Origin: Pristiophorus japonicus
Lineage: Eukaryota
Assembly: GCF_044704955.1 (NCBI RefSeq)
Contig: NC_091996.1
Span: 2,852,001-2,916,000 of the forward strand
DNA: 64,000 nucleotides
Direction of reading: 5' to 3'
Within the stretch, counting starts at the first letter, position 1. Every line of letters begins with the position of its first letter. Shown piece after piece: positions 1 through 62,592 of the stretch. The translations under genes were made by a program, and so were the position numbers. The notes under the pieces are model-generated. The model was not told where the DNA came from. It did no database searches and saw only the letters and a list, made by a program, of their open reading frames with translations.

Positions 1-503
1 GCAGAAGGGGAGTGAGAGGGAGGGTGTGTGAGATAGGAGGGAGGGAGGAGAGGAGGAAATGTGAGAAGGGAGGAGGGGAGGAGCGGGAGTGTCAGTGGGG
101 AGGAGGGAGTGTGAGAGGGGAGGACGGAGGGAGTATGAGAGGGGAGGAGGGAGGGAGTGTGAGAAGGGAGGAGGGGAGGAGGGAGGGAGCGTGAGAAGGG
201 AAGGAGGGAGGGGGCGTGAGAGGGGAGGAGGGAGGGGGCGTGAGAGGGGAGGAGGGAGGGGGCGTGAGAGGGGAGGAGGGAGGGGGCGTGAGAGGGGAGG
301 AGGGAGGGGGCGTGAGAGGGGAGGAGGGAGGGGGCGTGAGAGGGGAGGAGGGAGGGGGCGTGAGAGGGGAGGAGGGAGGGGGCGTGAGAGGGGAGGAGGG
401 AGGGGGCGTGAGAGGGGAGGAGGGAGGGGGCGTGAGAGGGGAGGAGGGAGGGGGCGTGAGAGGGGAGGAGGGAGGGGGCGTGAGAGGGGGAGGAGGGGGC
501 GTG
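1..503. repeat. Purine-rich 24-bp minisatellite (gtgagaggggaggagggagggggc), degenerate at left, running into a gap
   Basis: About 12 near-perfect units visible at ~216-503; the ORF track shows an 8-aa period (GVRGEEGG). Confidence 0.9.
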
Positions 504-703
504 NNNNNNNNNNNNNNNNNNNNNNNNNNNNNNNNNNNNNNNNNNNNNNNNNNNNNNNNNNNNNNNNNNNNNNNNNNNNNNNNNNNNNNNNNNNNNNNNN
601 NNNNNNNNNNNNNNNNNNNNNNNNNNNNNNNNNNNNNNNNNNNNNNNNNNNNNNNNNNNNNNNNNNNNNNNNNNNNNNNNNNNNNNNNNNNNNNNNNNNN
701 NNN
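504..703. other. Assembly gap (200 N)
   Basis: Run of n characters. Confidence 1.
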
Positions 704-2165
704 GGGGGAGGGGGTGAAGGGGGGTGTGAGGAGGGAGGGGGGCAGTACCTGGTAGTGCTCCATGGTGCAGGGTGTGAGGGGGATGGGGTGAGGGGGAGGG
801 GGATGGGGTGAGGGGGAGGGGGATGGGGGGCGGGGGCAGTACCTGGTAGTGCTCCATGGTGCAGGGTGTGAGGGGGATGGGGGTGAAGGGGGGATGGGGG
901 TGAGGGGGGGTGAGGAGGGGGATGGGGGTGAGGAGGGGGATGGGGGTGAGGAGGGGGATGGGGGTGAGGAGGGGGATGGGGGTGAGGAGGGGGATGGGGG
1001 TGAGGGGGGGTGAGGAGGGGGTGAGGGGGATGGGGTGAGGAGGGGGATGGGGTGAGGGGGAGGGGGAGGGGGATGGGGGGAGGGGGCAGTACCTGGTAGT
1101 GCTCCATGGTGCAGGGTGTGAGGGGGATGGGGTGAGGGGGAGGGGGTGAAGGGGGGTGAGGAGGGGGATGGGGTGAAGGGGGGGTGAGGAGGGGGTGAGG
1201 AGGGGGTGAGGATGGGGGTGAGGAGGGGGGTGAGGGGGAGGGGGGGGGATGGGGTGAGGAGGGGGATGGGGGTGAGGGGGGGTGAGGAGGGGGATGGGGG
1301 TGAGGGGGGGTGAGGAGGGGGATGGGGGTGATGGGGGGTGAGGAGGGGGATGGGGGTGAGGGGGAGGGGGGTGAGGAGGGGGTGAGGGGGAGGGGGCAGT
1401 ACCTGGTAGTGCTCCATGGTGCAGGGTGTGAGGGGGATGGGGTGAGGGGGAGGGGGTGAGGGGGGGGATGGGGGGGATGGGGGGGAGGAGGGGGAGGGGG
1501 ATGGGGGGGAGGGGGCAGTACCTGGTAGTGCTCCATGGTGCAGGGGGTGAGGGGGATGGGGGTGAAGGGGGGGGATGGGGGGGAGGGGGAGGGGGATGGG
1601 GGGGCGGGGGCAGTACCTGGTAGTGCTCCATGGTGCAGGGGGTGAGGGGGATGGGGGTGAAGGGGGGGGATGGGGGGGAGGGGGAGGGGGATGGGGGGGC
1701 GGGGGCAGTACCTGGTAGTGCTCCATGGTGCAGGGTGTGAGGGGGATGGGGTGAGGGGGAGGGGGTGAGGGGGGGATGGGGGGGGATGGGGGGGAGGAGG
1801 GGGAGGGGGATGGGGGGGAGGGGGCAGTACCTGGTAGTGCTCCATGGTGCAGGGGGTGAGGGGGATGGGGGTGAAGGGGGGGGATGGGGGGGAGGGGGAG
1901 GGGGATGGGGGGGCGGGGGCAGTACCTGGTAGTGCTCCATGGTGCAGGGTGTGAGGGGGATGGGGTGAGGGGGAGGGGGTGAGGGGGGGGATGGGGGGGA
2001 GGAGGGGGAGGGGGATGGGGGGGAGGGGGCAGTACCTGGTAGTGCTCCATGGTGCAGGGTGTGAGGGGGATGGGGTGAGGGGGAGGGGGTGAGGGGGGGG
2101 ATGGGGGGGAGGAGGGGGAGGGGGATGGGGGGGAGGGGGCAGTACCTGGTAGTGCTCCATGGTGC
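704..2165 (-). repeat. G-rich (+)/C-rich (-) minisatellite whose unit carries the STKLD1 start codon and first splice donor, 11 copies
   Basis: Identical 26-nt core cagtacctggtagtgctccatggtgc with minus-strand ATGs at 2160, 2050, 1940, 1845, 1726, 1631, 1536, 1417, 1107, 857 and 763, separated by G-run spacers. Confidence 0.92.
2146..2160 (-). CDS. STKLD1: Probable first coding exon (MEHYQ) of STKLD1/SgK071 kinase-like protein; the rest of the gene would lie left of the window
   Basis: Seen: minus strand cagcaccATGGAGCACTACCAG|GTACTG (strong Kozak, donor) at the edge of a unique CpG-rich promoter. Recalled: human STKLD1 is head-to-head with SURF4 and has MEKYQ-V at the start of its kinase-like domain. 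Only 5 codons, so the call leans on synteny. Confidence 0.62.
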
Positions 2166-2455
2166 TGTGTCGGATGCTCCTTGCTCCGGGACCCGGGCCG
2201 ACAATCCCCCGTCGCCTTGGCAACGCGGCCCACGCGGCCCAGCTTATCATCGCCCCAAACCCCGCTTTCTCCCACACACACCACTGCAATCGCGATTATT
2301 GACAAATCAGTCAGTCCCTTCGCTTTCTGTACTTTATATAAAAATATATATGTAGTAAAAGCTCTGACGTCATGTGGCGACAGGGAGCCAGTGCGCATGC
2401 GCGGGGCGGGAGCCAGTGCGCCTGCGCCGGGAGGGAGGTTGGAACACCACGTGTC
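2165..2455. promoter_or_regulatory. CpG-rich promoter of the putative STKLD1: RFX X-box, full CRE, NRF1 sites, GC box, E-box
   Basis: gtcgccttggcaac 2211-2224 (X-box); aatcgcgatt palindrome 2288-2297; AT-rich tatataaaaa 2335-2344; tgacgtca 2365-2372; tgcgcatgcgc 2392-2402; ggggcggg 2403-2410; tgcgcctgcgc 2417-2427; cacgtg 2448-2453. Motif matches only. Confidence 0.65.
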
Positions 2456-3800
2456 CCAGGTGGGGGCCCAAGGCTCAGGGAGGGTTCTAGGGGCCAAGAC
2501 CCAGGGAGGGTGCTGGGGGCCCAGGGAGGATGCTGGGGTCCCAATGCCCAGGGAGGGTTCTAGGGGCCAAGACCCAGGGAGGATGCTGGGGGGCCAAGAC
2601 CCAGGGAGGGTGCTGGGGGCCCAGGGAGGATGCTGGGGTCCCAATTCCCAGGGAGGGTTCTAGGGGCCAAGACCCAGGGAGGGTGCTGGGGGCCAAGACC
2701 CAGGGAGGATGCTGGGGCCCCAAGGTCAGGGAGGGTGCTGGGGGCCCAGGGACAGTGCTGGGGGCCCAAGGCCCAGGGAGGGTTCTCGGGGCCAAGACCC
2801 AGGGAGGATGCTGGGGCCCCAAGGCCAGGGAGGGTGCTGGGGGCCCAGGGACAGTGCTGGGGGCCCAAGGCCCAGGGAGGGTTCTCGGGGCCAAGACCCA
2901 GGGAGGGTGCTGGGGCCCCAAGGTCAGGGAGGGTGCTGGGGGCCCAGGGACGGTGCTGGGGGCCCAAGGCCCAGGGAGGGTTCTCGGGGCCAAGACCCAG
3001 GGAGGGTGCTGGGGCCCCAACGTCAGGGAGGATGCTGGGGCCCCAAGGTCAGGGAGGGTTCTAGGGGCCAAGACCCAGGGAGGGTGCTGGGGCCCCAAGG
3101 TCAGGGAGGATGCTGGGGGCCAAGACCCAGGGAGGATGCTGGGGGCCAAGACCCAGGGAGGATGCTGGGGCCCCAAGGCCAGGGAGGGTGCTGGGGGCCC
3201 AAGACCTAGGGAGGGTGCTGGGGCCCCAAGGTCAGGGAGGATGCTGGGGGCCCAAGGCCCAGGGAGGGTGCAGGGGGCCAAGACCCAGGAAGGGTGCTGG
3301 GGCCCCAAGGTCAGGGAGGATGCTGGGGGCCAAGACTCAGGGAGGGTGCTGGGGGCCAAGACCCAGGAAGGGTGCTGGGAGCCCAAGGCTCATGGAGGAT
3401 GCTGGGGGCCAAGACCCAGGGATGGTGCTGGGACCCCAAGGCCAGGGAGGGTGCTGGGGGCCCGGACCCAAGGAGGGTGCTGGGGGCCCAGGGAGGGTTC
3501 TAGGGGGCCCAGAGACGGTGCTGGAGCCACAAGGCCCAGGGAGGGTGCCGGGGGCCCAGGGCGGGTGCTGGGGGCCCAAGGCTCAGGGAGGGTGCTGGGG
3601 GCCCAGACCCAAGGAGGGTGCTGAGGGCCCAGGGAGGGTGCTGGGGGTCCAAGGCTCAGGGAGGGTGCTGGGGCCCCAGGGATGGTGTTGGGGCCCCGAG
3701 GCCCAGCGAGGGTGCTGGGGGCCCAGGGAAGGTGCTGGGGGCCCAGGAAGGGTTCTGGGGCCCCAAGGCCCAGGGAGGGTGCTGGGGGCCCAAGACCCAG
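2455..3800. repeat. Mosaic GC-rich minisatellite (~19-27-bp variants of cccagggagggtgctgggggccaaga)
   Basis: Direct reading; repeated GGCWGP/GRVLGA translations. Confidence 0.9.
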
Positions 3801-3874
3801 CCTCTGCTGCTCATCCCCAGTGGAGGCTCGCCAACCGCTGCCGTCGCAGGCTCAACTTACCCAACACAGTAACA

Positions 3875-4315
3875 GCAACAACTTGCATTGATATGCCATC
3901 TTTAATACAATAAAATATTCCAAGGCGCTTCACAGGAGAGCAAATCAGACAGAAATGTGACACCGAGCCAAAGAAGGTGATATTAGGGCAACTGACCAAT
4001 AGCTTGGTCAAGGAGCTCAGTTTTAAGGCACGTCTTAAAGGAGGCGAGAGAGGCAGAGAGGTTTAGGGAGGGAGTTCCAGAGCTTGGGGCCCAGGCAGCT
4101 GAAGGCACGGCCAGCGATGGTGGAGCGATTAAAATGGAGGACATGCAAGAGACCAGAATTGGAGGAGTGAAGAGATCATGAGGGTTCTGGGGCTGGAGGA
4201 GATTACAGAGATAGGGAGGGGCGAGGCCTTGGAGGGATTTGAAAATAAGAATGAGAATTTTAAAAGCGAGGTGTTGCTCAACTGAGAGACAATGTTGGTC
4301 AGCGAGCACGGGCTC
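3875..4315 (-). mobile_element. L2-like LINE 3' fragment
   Basis: Minus-strand peptide FKILILIFKSLQGLAPPYLCNLLQ followed by a GRAFS...PKLWNSLP-type segment and tail; same family recurs at ~12700-13200, 22630-23180, 32630-33020. Confidence 0.7.
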
Positions 4316-4319
4316 ATAG

Positions 4320-4655
4320 TCACGTTAGGGAGTGAATTCCGCTATTTTGATCAAGCAACAATGAAGGATCGGTGATATATCTCCAAGTCAGGGTAGTGTG
4401 TAACTTGGAGGGGAACGTGGAGGTGGTGGTGTTCCCATGCGCCTGCTGCCCTTGTCCTTCTAGGTGGTAGAGGTCACGGATTTGGGCGGTGCTGCCAAAG
4501 AAGCCTTGGTGAGTTGCTGCAGTGCATTTTGTAGATAGTACACACTGCAGCCACGGTGCGCCGGTGGTGGAGGGAGTGAATCTTGAAGGTAATGGATGAG
4601 TCACCAATCTAGCGAGCTGCTTTGTCCTGGATGGTGTCGAGTTGCTCGAGTGTTG
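4320..4655 (-). mobile_element. LINE ORF2 C-terminal fragment (CR1/L2 group)
   Basis: Encodes HSLHHRRTVAAVCTIYKMHCSNSPRLLWQH-like peptide; a related copy lies on + at ~31460-31700. Confidence 0.6.
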
Positions 4656-4869
4656 TTGTCCTCTGCAGATTTCCCAATTTAATGCAGTGTTCTATTTTTC
4701 ATATTATCTGTGGAGAGTTGCATCATCCATATCACTTTTAAATGTTATTTGAAAACTGACATTCAATTAGATCATGGCTGATCTGTATCTCAACTCCATT
4801 TACCCGCCTTGGTTCCATAACTCTTATTACCTTTACCAATAAAAATCTATCTGAACCTATGTGTATCTA

Positions 4870-6422
4870 TGTCCTTGTATTATCTGGGTCTGTATACAGG
4901 TCTGTGTGTCTGGGTATGTGCGTGTCTGGGTCTGTCTGTGTGTGCCTGGGTCTGTGCGTGTATCTGGGTCTATCTGTCTGTCTGGGTATGTGTGTCTGGG
5001 TCTGTGTGTGTATCTGGGTCTGTGTGTGGCTGGGTCTGTCTGTGTATCTGGGTCTGTGTGTGTGTGTGTGTGTATCTGGGTCTATGTGTGTCTGGGTCTG
5101 TCTGTGTGTCTGGGTATGTGTGTGTCTGGGTCTGTGTTTGTGTGTGGGTCTGTCTGTGTGTGTGTGTATGTCTGGGTCTGTGCATGTATCTGGGTCTGTG
5201 TGTGTATCTGGGTCTGTGTGTGTCTGGGTCTGTCTGTGTGTCTGGGTATGTGTGTGTGTGTGTATCTGGGTCTATGTGTGCCTGGGTTTGTGCGTGTATC
5301 TGGGTCTATCTGTCTGTCTTGGTATGTGTGTCTGGGTCTGTGTGTGTGTGTGTGTGTATCTGGGTCTATGTGTGTCTGGGTCTGTCTGTGTGTCTGGGTA
5401 TGTGTGTGTCTGGGTCTGTGTGTGTGTGTGTGTCTGGGTCTGTGTGTGGGTCTGTGTGTGCCTGGGTCTGTGTGTGTATCTGGGTCTATCAGTCTGTGTG
5501 TGTATCTGGGTCTATGTGTGTCTGGGTATGTGTGTGTCTGGGTCTGTGTGTGTATCTGGGTCTGTGTGTGGGTCTGTGTGTGCCTGGGTCTGTGTGTGTA
5601 TCTGGATCTGTGTGTGGGTCTGTCTATGTCTGTCTGTGTGTGTATCTGGGTCTGTGTGTGCCTGGGTCTGTGTGTGTATCTGGGTCTATCTGTCTGTCTG
5701 TGTGTGTATCTGGGTCTGTGTGTGTCTGGGTCTGTGTGTGTGTGTGGGTCTGTCTGTGTGTCTGGGTCTGTGTGTGCCTGGGTCTGAGTGTGTATCTGGA
5801 TCTGTCTGTGTGTGTCTGGGTGTGTGTGTGTGTGTGGGTCTGTCTGTGTGTGTCTGGGTGTGTGTGTGGGTCTGTGTGTGTCTGGGTCTGTGTGTGCCTG
5901 GGTCTGTGTGTGGATCTGGGTCTGTCTGTGTGTGTCTGGGTCTGTGTGTGTGTGTGGGTCTGTCTGTGTGTGTCTGGGTGTGTGTGTGGGTCTGTCTGTG
6001 TGTCTGGGTCTGTGTGTGCCTGGGTCTGAGTGTGTATCTGGGTCTGTCTGTGTGTGTCTGGGTCTGTGTGTGTGTGTGGGTCTGTCTGTGTGTGTCTGGG
6101 TCTGTCTGTGTGTCTGGGTCTGTGTGTGCCTGGGTCTGTGTGTATCTGGGTGTGTGTGTGTGTGTGTCTGGGTCTGTCTGGGTCTGTCTGTGTGTGTCTG
6201 GGTGTGTGTCTGGGTCTGTCTGTGTGTCTGGGTCTGTGTGTCTGGGTCTGTGTGTATCTGGGTGTGTGTGTGTGTCTGGGTCTGTCTGTGTGTGTCTGGG
6301 TGTGTATCTGGGTCTGTCTGTGTGTGTCTGGGGGTGTGTGTGGGTCTGTCTGTGTGTCTGGGTCTGTGTGTATCTGGGTCTGTCTGTCTGTCTATGTGTG
6401 TCTGGGGGTGTGTGTGTGTGTC
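4870..6422. repeat. Complex (TG)n/tctggg microsatellite directly upstream of the SURF4 core promoter
   Basis: ~1.55 kb of tgtgtg/tctgggtc/tatctg modules. Confidence 0.95.
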
Positions 6423-6560: not shown

Positions 6561-26678
<20,118 letters not shown>

Positions 26679-26699: not shown

Positions 26700-28797
26700 C
26701 TCAGCCCCCCTCCTCTTCTCCACCTACCCCCCACCCCCAAACCTCTCCTCTCCCTGCCCCCCCCCCACATCTCCTCCCCCCCCCACATCTCCTCCCCCCC
26801 CCCCCACATCTCCTCTCCCCCCCCCCCCACATCTCCTCTCCCCCCCCCCCCCACATCTCCTCTCCCCCCCCCCCCACATCTCCTCTCCCCCCCCCCCCAC
26901 ATCTCCTCTTCCTCTCCCCCCCCTCCCCCCACATCTCTCCTCCCCCCCCCACATCTCTCCTCCCCCCCCCACATCTCTCCCCCCCCACATCTCTCCTCCC
27001 CCCCCAACATCTCCTCCCCCCCCCCACTCTCCTCCCCCCCCCACCTCTCCTCCCCCTCCCACCCCACCTCTCCTCCCCCCCCCACCCCACCTCTCCTCCC
27101 CCCCCCCACCCCACCTCTCCTCCCCCCCCCCACCCCACCTCTCCTCCCCCCCCCACCCCACCTCTCCTCCCCCCCCCACCCCACCTCTCCTCTCCCCTTT
27201 CCCTCCCTCTCTCCTCTCTTCTTTCCCCCCCCAACCTCCTCTCCCCTTCACCTCTCCTCTCCCCTTCACCTCTCCTCTCCCCTTCACCTCTTCCCCCCCC
27301 CCACCTCTTTCCCCCCCCACCCACCTCTTTCCCCCCCCACCCACCTCTTCCCCCCCCCCCCCCCACCCACCTCTTCCCCCCCCCACCCACCTCTTCCCCC
27401 CCCCCCCACCCACCTCTCCCCCCCCCCCCACCCACCTCTCCCCCCCCCCCCCACCCACCTCTTCCCCCCCCCCCCCACCCACCTCTTCCCCCCCCCCCCA
27501 CCCACCTCTTCCCCCCCCCCCCACCCACCTCTCCCCCCCCCCCCACCTCTCCCCCCCCCCCCCCCCACCCACCTCTCCCCCCCCCCCACCCACCTCTTCC
27601 CCCCCCCCCCCACCCNNNNNNNNNNNNNNNNNNNNNNNNNNNNNNNNNNNNNNNNNNNNNNNNNNNNNNNNNNNNNNNNNNNNNNNNNNNNNNNNNNNNN
27701 NNNNNNNNNNNNNNNNNNNNNNNNNNNNNNNNNNNNNNNNNNNNNNNNNNNNNNNNNNNNNNNNNNNNNNNNNNNNNNNNNNNNNNNNNNNNNNNNNNNN
27801 NNNNNNNNNNNNNNNCACCTCTTCCCCCCCCCACCCACCTATTCCCCCCCCCACCTCTTCCCTCCCCCCCCCCCCCCCCACCCACCTCTTCCCCCCCCCA
27901 CCCACCTCTTCCCCCCCCCCCACGAACCTCTTCCCCCCCCCCCCCACCCACCTCTTCCCCCCCCCCCCACCCACCTCTTCTCCCCCCCCCACCCACCTCT
28001 TCTCCCCCCCCCACCCACCTCTTCTCCCCCCCCCCACCCACCTCTTCCCCCCCCCCCCCACCCACCTCTTCTCCCCCCCCCCCCCACCCACCTCTTCTCC
28101 CCCCCCCCACCCACCTCTTCTCCCCCCCCCCCCCACCCACCTCTTCCCCCCCCCCCCCCACCCACCTCTTCCCCCCCCCCCACCCACCTCTTCCCCCCCC
28201 CCCCACCCACCTCTTCCCCCCCCCCCCACCCACCTCTTCCCCCCCCCCCCCACCCACCTCTTCCCCCCCCCCCCACCCACCTCTTCCCCCCCCCCCACCC
28301 ACCTCTTCCCCCCCCCACCCACCTCTTCCCCCCACCCACCTACCTCTCACCCCCCCCCCCCCCAAACCTCTCCCCTTTCCCTCCCCCTCTCCCCTTTCCC
28401 TCCCCCTCTCCTCTCTCTCCCCCTCCGCTCCTCCCCCCCCACCTTTCCTCTCCCCTTCCCCCTCTCCCCTCCCCATCTCTCTCCTTCCCCCACCCCTCTT
28501 CTCCCCACCCCCCATCCTCCCCTCTCCACTTCTACTCCTTGCCCCTCACCTCTCCCCTTCCCCCCCCTCCCTCATCTCTGCCCCCCCCTCCCTCATCTCT
28601 GCCCCCCCCTCCTCTCCCCTTCCCTCCGCCCCCCCTCCTCTCCCCTTCCCTCCTCACCTCTTTCCCACCCCTCATCCTCACCTTGCCCCCACTCACCTTT
28701 CCCCCTCTCTCCTCTCTCTTCTCCCCTCTCCCCTCTCCCCTCTCCCCTCTCCCCTCTCCCCTCTCCCCTCTCCCCTCTCCCCTCTCCCCTCCCCCCA
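26700..28797. repeat. C-rich polypyrimidine array immediately 3' of the SURF4 stop (ccacatctcct / cacccacctctt / ctctccc modules)
   Basis: Direct reading; interrupted by a gap. Confidence 0.92.
27616..27815. other. Assembly gap (200 N)
   Basis: Run of n characters. Confidence 1.
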
Positions 28798-31124: not shown

Positions 31125-31130
31125 AATAAA
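31125..31130 (+). terminator. Candidate SURF4 polyadenylation signal AATAAA (second candidate 31342-31347)
   Basis: Canonical hexamer followed by GT-rich tcttgttcgtgagt; no transcript evidence. Confidence 0.45.

Positions 31131-33219: not shown

Positions 33220-62592
<29,373 letters not shown>

What the first reader, a model, noticed from the sequence alone, without database searches (positions are those of the whole stretch)
743..2165. Start codon plus first splice donor of the putative STKLD1 amplified into an 11-copy tandem array
Seen: the minus-strand cassette gcaccATGGAGCACTACCAG|GTACTG occurs 11 times with no substitution in the 26-nt core, while the C-run spacers vary (about 95-310 nt between copies). 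The array has no stop codon in any minus frame. Donors of the copies with ATG at 1845, 1536 and 1107 are in frame with the authentic ATG at 2160 (offsets 315, 624, 1053). Inference: the pre-mRNA offers 11 identical competing 5' splice sites. Distal in-frame use would add Pro/His/Ser-rich N-terminal inserts, and out-of-frame use would make the first ATG a uORF and lower output. Each CAG|GT after a pyrimidine tract also has the shape of a recursive splice site. Copy number could act as a heritable expression or isoform dial. It may equally be neutral slippage, and frames depend on error-prone homopolymer lengths.
Basis: partly seen in the sequence, partly recalled or inferred. Interest (0 to 1): 0.75.

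Follow-up and report, generated by a model that had tools for sequence, protein, structure and literature searches.

The report
Stuttered first exon in shark STKLD1
The last 20 bases of the first exon of a shark STKLD1 gene (a sperm-tail protein in mammals), start codon and splice signal included, are copied ten more times into the first intron, but the one assembled transcript seen uses only the first copy, so this is likely a near-harmless repeat of a kind already known from human genes and chicken dot chromosomes.

Summary
Observation confirmed: 11 identical 26-nt cores, periods 94-310 nt, no stops, in-frame offsets 315/624/1053. The gene is STKLD1: window codons match P0001 (UniRef, Pristiophorus japonicus), head to head with SURF4. 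The only spliced contig (run X3) leaves the genome at 2146, the first donor, and continues with the next ten codons of P0001. The dial reading is not supported: 3 of 10 distal donors are in frame (3.3 expected), no unit length is a multiple of three, and the copied CAGs are poor acceptors. The window is 38% tandem repeat, and 5 of 10 neighbouring donors also have arrays within 100 nt. A DNA contig (X1, depth 3) crosses the first core unbranched with a different spacer, so copy number is either polymorphic or unconfirmed. Closest known: human F7, LMNB2, PDGF, CBS and 6-16 exon-boundary minisatellites, and 'exon stuttering' on chicken dot chromosomes. This scan noted the same class before in other sharks (GIPC1, EMILIN1, MRPS18C). 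Verdict: new member of a known kind. What is somewhat new is the captured start codon and a stuttering-like locus outside birds. Minor leak to distal donors is not excluded.

The parts
704..2165 (-). Compound minisatellite: 11 units, each 20 nt of exon 1 end (Kozak-like context, ATG and 4 further codons) + donor + C-rich spacer of 68-284 nt; 34 non-overlapping G-quadruplex motifs on the template (+) strand
2146..2374 (-). STKLD1 exon 1 as covered by the spliced contig of run X3 (a contig end is not a transcription start)
   Evidence: residues 1-35 of P0001 map to 2250-2146
2158..2160 (-). Conserved start codon (M31 of P0001), A at -3 and G at +4
2248..2250 (-). Upstream in-frame ATG used by the database model; a 30-residue extension not seen in the six other chondrichthyan hits whose models include exon 1
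2140..2145 (-). Authentic 5' splice site (first six intron bases); 6 of 9 consensus positions
743..2055 (-). Ten pseudo-donor copies, each with its own ATG in frame with exon 2 (first intron G at 2035, 1925, 1830, 1711, 1616, 1521, 1402, 1092, 842, 748); copies 4, 7 and 9 are in frame with 2160
504..703 (.). 200-N assembly gap that cuts the array
102..503 (.). Second, purely intronic 24-bp C-rich (sense) minisatellite of the same intron
2211..2224 (.). Palindromic X-box-like (RFX-type) site in the 5' leader; the label is recalled from consensus and untested
   Evidence: sequence
6561..6608 (+). SURF4 coding exon 1, head to head with STKLD1 (context)

Best explanation
This is a tandem array made of the exon 1/intron 1 boundary of shark STKLD1, copying the last 20 exon bases (start codon included), the splice donor and C-rich intron sequence at least ten times; the one spliced contig seen uses the first donor, and the extra donors are likely silent or nearly so, making the array a probably neutral, probably length-polymorphic by-product of local repeat instability. 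Shown: structure, gene identity, first-donor junction, repeat-dense surroundings. Inferred: an initial duplication joined C-rich intron sequence to a point 20 nt upstream of the donor, and repeated slippage or unequal exchange in a G-quadruplex-rich tract then built nested unit types; the most upstream of identical donors wins, as shown experimentally for human F7 intron 7. Predicted: any leak to 7 of the 10 distal donors would frameshift the message read from 2160 and likely be degraded, and leak to the other 3 would add 105, 208 or 351 residues that are 45-48% proline.
For: Spliced contig X3 (728 nt, depth 38.7) matches 2374-2146 with no other letters and its loose end encodes residues 36-45 of P0001, with no insert. 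None of the 120 listed homologues has a repeated start motif at its N-terminus; the second motif in 13 of 120 lies 83-84 residues further on, inside the kinase domain. 3 of 10 distal donors in frame against 3.3 expected; 0 of 10 unit lengths (6 distinct lengths) divisible by three. Tandem repeats cover 37.7% of the window; 5 of the 10 SURF4 and SURF2 donors have an array within 100 nt, against 5% of random positions (post hoc, small sample). SURF2 intron 3 holds 36 donor-like motifs in an unrelated array. Units fall into discrete nested types (1=2; 3=5=6; 4~7) with diagnostic substitutions. None of the array's 63 complex 16-mers occurs elsewhere in the window, so it is locally born. X1 shows a different first spacer, and X1 and X4 both show a longer form of a 25-nt promoter repeat. 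Precedent: only the most upstream donor is used in F7, LMNB2 and PDGF (PMC1557585).
Against: The RNA evidence is one assembled contig from one sample (S2) whose array allele is unknown; the run is not on record as RNA, contigs drop rare forms, and the database model may rest on the same data. In 6-16 and CBS two downstream pseudo-donors are used (PMC1557585). The donor is only moderate (6 of 9 consensus positions, the lowest of ten sites compared). The core has 0 substitutions in 286 bases; at the rates of two control arrays this has P = 0.034 and 0.002 if copies were independent, 0.29 and 0.11 for about four independent copies, so mild constraint is not excluded. No independent DNA record confirms a second copy: the X1 contig crosses the 31-mer that all 11 copies share without breaking.
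Confidence: 0.68

Rival explanations
1. Copy-number dial: distal donors take a real share of splicing, so longer alleles send more message into frameshifted, decay-prone or proline-extended forms and lower STKLD1 output.
For: Ten perfect donor copies 110-1397 nt downstream. The authentic donor is moderate. Human 6-16 and CBS use two pseudo-donors (PMC1557585). The 2160 ATG has A at -3 and G at +4, so out-of-frame leak would cost protein. Alleles appear to differ.
Against: The X3 contig runs unbroken from exon 1 into exon 2 at the first donor. No frame enrichment. No orthologue shows a matching insert. Neighbouring genes show the same repeat growth next to donors without capturing them.
Confidence: 0.14
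2. The array is an assembly or read artefact, or its copy number is inflated, at a low-coverage G-rich contig end beside the gap.
For: The array abuts a 200-N gap. In the assembly the shared 31-mer has 2 predecessors and 3 successors, yet the 330-nt X1 contig bridges it unbranched and continues with a spacer start found in none of the 11 units.
Against: Seven distinct unit sequences with nested, diagnostic differences are not what collapse or simple duplication errors produce (inference). The X1 contig has depth 3.1, under the tool's error warning of 5; contigs show presence, not absence; sample S1 shows two forms at 2458-2460, so the contig may be another allele. Similar arrays in chicken were verified in raw nanopore reads (PMC12954441).
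Confidence: 0.13
3. Each CAG|GT is a recursive (zero-length exon) site, so the intron start is removed stepwise; the mature message would be identical to first-donor splicing.
For: AG directly followed by a regenerated donor; branch-point-like CTCAC words in the spacers about 30 nt upstream (sequence; consensus recalled). The X3 junction cannot tell this apart.
Against: Positions -20 to -4 hold 2 T and 9 purines of 17 in all 10 copies, against 5-11 T and 2-7 purines in 7 of 7 real acceptors of the window; T in -40 to -4 is 5 against 11-19; a competing AG lies 9 nt upstream.
Confidence: 0.05

Closest known systems
Human F7 intron 7 37-bp VNTR (Borensztajn et al. 2006, PMC1557585; seen: abstract, synopsis, introduction, passages)
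   Same: First unit spans an exon-intron boundary, so identical donors are reiterated in the intron; only the most upstream one is used.
   Different: F7 copies 4 exon bases of an internal exon in 5-9 regular units; here 20 exon bases of a first exon, including the start codon, in at least 11 irregular units of 94-310 nt.
Human LMNB2 (10-15 x 100 bp), PDGF intron 4 (16-18 x 81 bp), CBS intron 13, 6-16 intron 2 (known here only second-hand from the introduction of PMC1557585)
   Same: LMNB2 matches in unit size and copy number and uses the authentic donor only.
   Different: CBS and 6-16 also use two pseudo-donors; that introduction does not describe any of them as copying a start codon.
'Exon stuttering' on chicken dot chromosomes (Hron et al. 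2026, PMC12954441; seen: abstract, passages, section 7 part 1, section 9 part 2; supplements not read)
   Same: Direct, imperfect tandem copies of an exon edge plus splice site in the adjacent intron, mixed with purely intronic expansions; exon piece 20 nt (their range 20-187), 10 copies (1-44), span at least 1.4 kb (median 1,751 bp); GC-rich and G4-rich.
   Different: [quoted passage not shown] The 20-nt hits score 40.1 bits, under their 42.1 cut-off. Ten of the 22 arrays in this window share words with other places, so part of the repeat load is dispersed satellite, not local stutter.
STKLD1 (kinase-like protein on radial spoke 3 of mammalian sperm; PMC11779644, passages seen)
   Same: Host gene: P0001 hits STKLD1 proteins from sharks to mammals and chain 9fqr_Xr at E 7e-60 (the PDB file labels that chain with another molecule name).
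   Different: Location and role in sharks are untested.

Membership tests
STKLD1 gene | Exon 1 peptide continues into an STKLD1 kinase-like domain | tested here: met
   Window 2250-2146 equals residues 1-35 of P0001; the X3 loose end encodes residues 36-45; Pkinase E 7e-40
STKLD1 gene | Neighbour of SURF4 and SURF2 (surfeit locus order recalled) | tested here: met
   PF02077 and PF05477 hits and intact spliced frames
Exon-intron-boundary minisatellite (F7/LMNB2 type) | First unit spans a real exon-intron boundary | tested here: met
   Junction at 2146 inside unit 1
Exon-intron-boundary minisatellite (F7/LMNB2 type) | Identical donor reiterated in the intron | tested here: met
   10 further exact copies
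Exon-intron-boundary minisatellite (F7/LMNB2 type) | Most upstream donor dominates | tested here: inconclusive
   One contig of one sample uses it; minor forms and that sample's allele cannot be seen
Exon-intron-boundary minisatellite (F7/LMNB2 type) | Copy number varies between alleles | tested here: inconclusive
   X1 carries a different first spacer at depth 3.1; no allele was spanned
Exon stuttering (Hron et al. 2026) | Direct tandem copies of at least 20 nt of a coding-exon edge in the adjacent intron | tested here: met
   10 hits of exon 1 bases 210-229, same strand; 0 hits in 20 shuffles; 1 of 11 introns examined shows this
Exon stuttering (Hron et al. 2026) | BLASTn bit score at least 42.1 (their screen cut-off) | tested here: not met
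   40.1 bits per copy; the cut-off is a noise filter set on chicken shuffles
Exon stuttering (Hron et al. 2026) | High intronic simple-repeat cover in the region | tested here: met
   96% of the visible STKLD1 intron; median 18.5% over 10 complete neighbouring introns, 3 of them 0%; chicken dot medians 7-93% (my repeat-finder settings, not theirs)
Exon stuttering (Hron et al. 2026) | Extensive intron-length variation among individuals | not testable with these tools
   No long reads were served; only contigs
Exon stuttering (Hron et al. 2026) | Location on a dot-type chromosome | not testable with these tools
   No whole genome held
Recursive splice site | AG followed by a strong donor | tested here: inconclusive
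   AG|GT present; donor moderate, 6 of 9
Recursive splice site | U-rich polypyrimidine tract directly before the AG | tested here: not met
   2 T of 17 against 5-11 of 17 in 7 real acceptors
Recursive splice site | Splicing intermediates or lariats at the site | not testable with these tools
   No nascent RNA reads available

The most novel reading that the evidence does not exclude
Sharks carry the bird-type 'exon stuttering' instability, and at STKLD1 it has produced a heritable copy-number dial: every extra unit is a complete mini first exon (strong start codon plus donor, in frame with exon 2), so allele length sets how much message leaks into frameshifted or proline-extended forms of a sperm radial-spoke protein.
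Probability: 0.1. Interest if true: 0.6.

Novelty: new member of a known kind. Interest (0 to 1): 0.27.

Why it matters
As most likely read, it is one more natural example of first-donor preference among identical splice sites, with a small twist: the start codon is copied too, so each distal copy could encode the normal protein on its own. Its wider value is comparative. A 2026 paper describes exon stuttering as confined to bird dot chromosomes (and gerbils); this shark locus meets its structural description, and unchecked scan notes list three more first-intron cases in cartilaginous fishes. A genome-wide screen in sharks would show whether the instability is an old property of small GC-rich vertebrate chromosomes. 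If distal donors were used in proportion to copy number, it would be a rare repeat-length control of a fertility gene.

Tried and rejected
No whole genome is held, so exon 2 could not be located in DNA; its start is known only from the X3 loose end and P0001. No holder is on record as RNA: no RNA holder listed; not used as evidence on expression. X5 and X6 hold next to none of the words and X5 gave no laid contig: no proof of absence, tissue unknown. X3 has no cover on 2116-2145, X4 none on 2116-2379 (72% of the run read), and no contig with the assembly's own first spacer was laid: holes prove nothing. PDB search with the 35-residue leader: 0 hits at E 10. Search of PMC9149355 for the human exon 1 boundary: 0 passages. 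Paper searches for SgK071/C9orf96, for VNTR plus alternative donor, and for the species gave nothing used (listings only). My first test of core invariance returned only exact matches through a best-match setting and was discarded; one search replaces it. The U1 duplex energies (recalled U1 end) did not separate real from pseudo donors and carry little weight. Breakpoint microhomology is weak (8 of 20 positions). Rejected: selection for in-frame inserts (chance level); recursive splicing (no tract); a dispersed satellite or transposon origin (0 of 63 words shared, within this window only). Scan look-ups by place, near and relatives: nothing.

Full report
Observation. The cassette is present as described. 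A search with up to three mismatches returns 11 matches, all exact, on the minus strand between 743 and 2165; 100 shuffles give none. Periods are 110, 110, 95, 119, 95, 95, 119, 310, 250 and 94 nt; the three minus frames from 2160 to the gap contain no stop; copies 4, 7 and 9 (ATG 1845, 1536, 1107) are in frame with 2160. The array runs into a 200-N gap at 504-703, beyond which a different 24-bp C-rich array continues. The only AG, GT and ATG words in the array lie in the cores, so the lack of stops follows from the C-rich composition.

Gene identity. The open frame upstream of the first donor (window 2295-2146) found one protein, P0001, named STKLD1 of Pristiophorus japonicus by UniRef, 100% identical over 35 residues. 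P0001 retrieves 294 proteins at E 1e-20 or better; the 120 listed are mostly named STKLD1, from sharks to mammals and sea urchins, and it has a Pkinase domain. Of those 120, 61 begin at an M[ED]xY motif, 39 have it behind an extension and 20 lack it in the first 200 residues. All six other chondrichthyan hits whose models include exon 1 begin at the methionine that aligns with 2160; the other six listed begin further in. So 2160 is the conserved start, and the model's start at 2250 is an in-frame, unconserved extension. SURF4 lies head to head on the plus strand and SURF2 further right. In mammals STKLD1 is described as a sperm-specific kinase bound to radial spoke 3 (PMC11779644, passages).

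Which donor is used. Six runs were listed, four holding the stretch, none on record as RNA. Four were laid on 2116-2460. X3 gave one 728-nt contig, depth 38.7, matching 2374 to 2146 on the minus strand without other letters; its loose end, read on from the exon, encodes residues 36-45 of P0001. It is therefore a spliced transcript that uses the first donor, with no spacer, extra codons or micro-exon. The database model agrees but may rest on the same data. Limits: one contig, one sample (S2), allele unknown, and contigs drop rare forms.

Is the array real and variable? X1 gave a 330-nt contig, depth 3.1, from 2427 to 2117. It has three inserted bases just inside the intron and a 16-nt loose end, giving a spacer start that none of the 11 assembled units has. 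In the assembly the 31-mer at 2165-2135 is shared by all 11 copies, with 2 predecessors and 3 successors; the X1 contig bridges it without a break. This fits another allele with a different or shorter array, loss of G-rich words or pruning in the contig builder (recalled behaviour), or an inflated assembly. X1 and X4, one sample, both show an extra unit of a 25-nt promoter repeat at 2383 and two forms at 2458-2460, so the sample carries sequence that differs from the window close by. For a real array: seven distinct unit sequences with nested relations (1=2, 3=5=6, 4~7) and diagnostic substitutions. I put the artefact reading at 0.13.

Tests of the functional readings. In-frame distal donors are 3 of 10, against 3.3 expected; 0 of 10 unit lengths are multiples of three (6 distinct lengths, P = 0.09), which is the opposite of what selection for inserts would give. 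The inserts would be 105, 208 and 351 residues, 45-48% proline. Three of 120 homologues have a proline-rich window near the N-terminus, none resembling the array. As acceptors the copied CAGs are poor: 2 T and 9 purines in positions -20 to -4 in 10 of 10 copies, against 5-11 T and 2-7 purines in 7 of 7 real acceptors, with another AG 9 nt upstream. Core invariance is inconclusive: two control arrays in SURF2 have 76 of 89 and 29 of 36 exact cores, with runs of up to 16 and 6 exact copies; zero changes in 286 bases has P = 0.002 and 0.034 if copies are independent, 0.11 and 0.29 for about four independent copies.

Context. Tandem repeats cover 37.7% of the window, in 22 merged arrays; 12 of the 22, this one included, share no complex 16-mer with any other place in the window, while 10 do and look like dispersed satellites. 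Five of the ten SURF4 and SURF2 donors have an array within 100 nt (15, 46, 56, 61, 91), against 5% for random positions (P about 6e-5, post hoc). The SURF2 intron 1 unit begins with sequence just behind its donor, and the SURF2 intron 3 array holds 36 donor-like motifs. In an exon-versus-intron screen modelled on Hron et al., 1 of 11 introns shows copies of an adjacent exon edge: STKLD1 intron 1, 10 hits of 20 nt at 40.1 bits, 0 in 20 shuffles; one weak opposite-strand hit in SURF4 intron 5 (18.3 bits) is at shuffle level. The STKLD1 array holds 34 G-quadruplex motifs on the template strand. Smaller shark chromosomes are reported to be richer in GC and simple tandem repeats (PMC10620051, passages); which chromosome this window lies on is unknown.

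Mechanism. Shown: structure, host gene, first-donor junction, repeat-dense setting. Inferred: arrays are born often at GC-rich intron starts here; at STKLD1 the unit boundary fell 20 nt inside the exon, so the start codon and donor were carried along, and slippage or unequal exchange then amplified both whole units and C-rich sub-units (units 8 and 9). [quoted passage not shown] Predicted: leak to seven of the copies would frameshift the message read from 2160; each such message still has an intact frame from its last ATG, reachable only by leaky scanning past up to ten strong upstream starts.

Comparison and novelty. It works like, and structurally belongs to, the exon-intron-boundary minisatellites of human F7, LMNB2, PDGF, CBS and 6-16 (the last four known here only from the F7 paper's introduction). 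It also meets the structural description of exon stuttering on chicken dot chromosomes, while missing that screen's bit cut-off by one base and lacking population data (PMC12954441; supplements not read and may list comparable start-codon cases). Searches for the stuttering terms returned four papers, three listed, all on birds; a search joining minisatellite, shark, exon-intron boundary and splice donor listed no shark case; searches for STKLD1 listed nothing on this array. Subscription journals are largely missing from that library. Unchecked scan notes report the same class in shark GIPC1 and EMILIN1, an elephant-shark-type MRPS18C and two annelid genes; I saw them after reaching the F7 comparison and did not test them.

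Verdict. Observation confirmed; interpretation partly supported; new member of a known kind; interest 0.27. The boldest reading not excluded, a copy-number dial on STKLD1 in a shark locus with bird-type stuttering, has probability about 0.1 and would merit 0.6. The weaker half of it, that stuttering-like instability is common in shark genomes, I would put near even odds, on this one window and unchecked notes.

Noticed in passing
window 59893-62437 (SURF2 intron 1, minus strand): An 87-copy 29-bp array whose unit begins with the sequence just behind the SURF2 exon 1 donor; 43 G-quadruplex motifs on the template strand. A purely intronic stutter at a first-intron start.
   Followed up: partly
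window 55572-56945 (SURF2 intron 3, minus strand): A 36-copy 39-bp array starting 15 nt behind the exon 3 donor, each unit carrying a donor-like motif with 7 of 9 consensus positions that is not a copy of the exon.
   Followed up: partly
window 26720-28796: About 2 kb of C-rich arrays with a 200-N gap begin 40 nt behind the SURF4 stop codon, apparently inside the 3' UTR (poly(A)-signal-like words near 31130 and 31345).
   Followed up: no
window 2382-2437: A 25-nt tandem duplication of an NRF1-like site (label recalled) in the STKLD1 promoter; contigs of X1 and X4 indicate a form with at least one more unit.
   Followed up: partly
window 2461-6417: The STKLD1-SURF4 bidirectional promoter is split by two locally born arrays (1.3 and 1.5 kb), putting the two first exons about 4.2 kb apart.
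   Followed up: no
window 2373-2311 (minus strand): A 20-codon upstream open frame begins one base inside the 5' end of the X3 contig, in the same frame as the main start, and stops before 2250.
   Followed up: no
P0001: The database model is 502 residues and ends where most orthologues continue to about 650; two other shark models (P0002, P0005) are also cut short, which may reflect assembly or annotation gaps at this locus.
   Followed up: no
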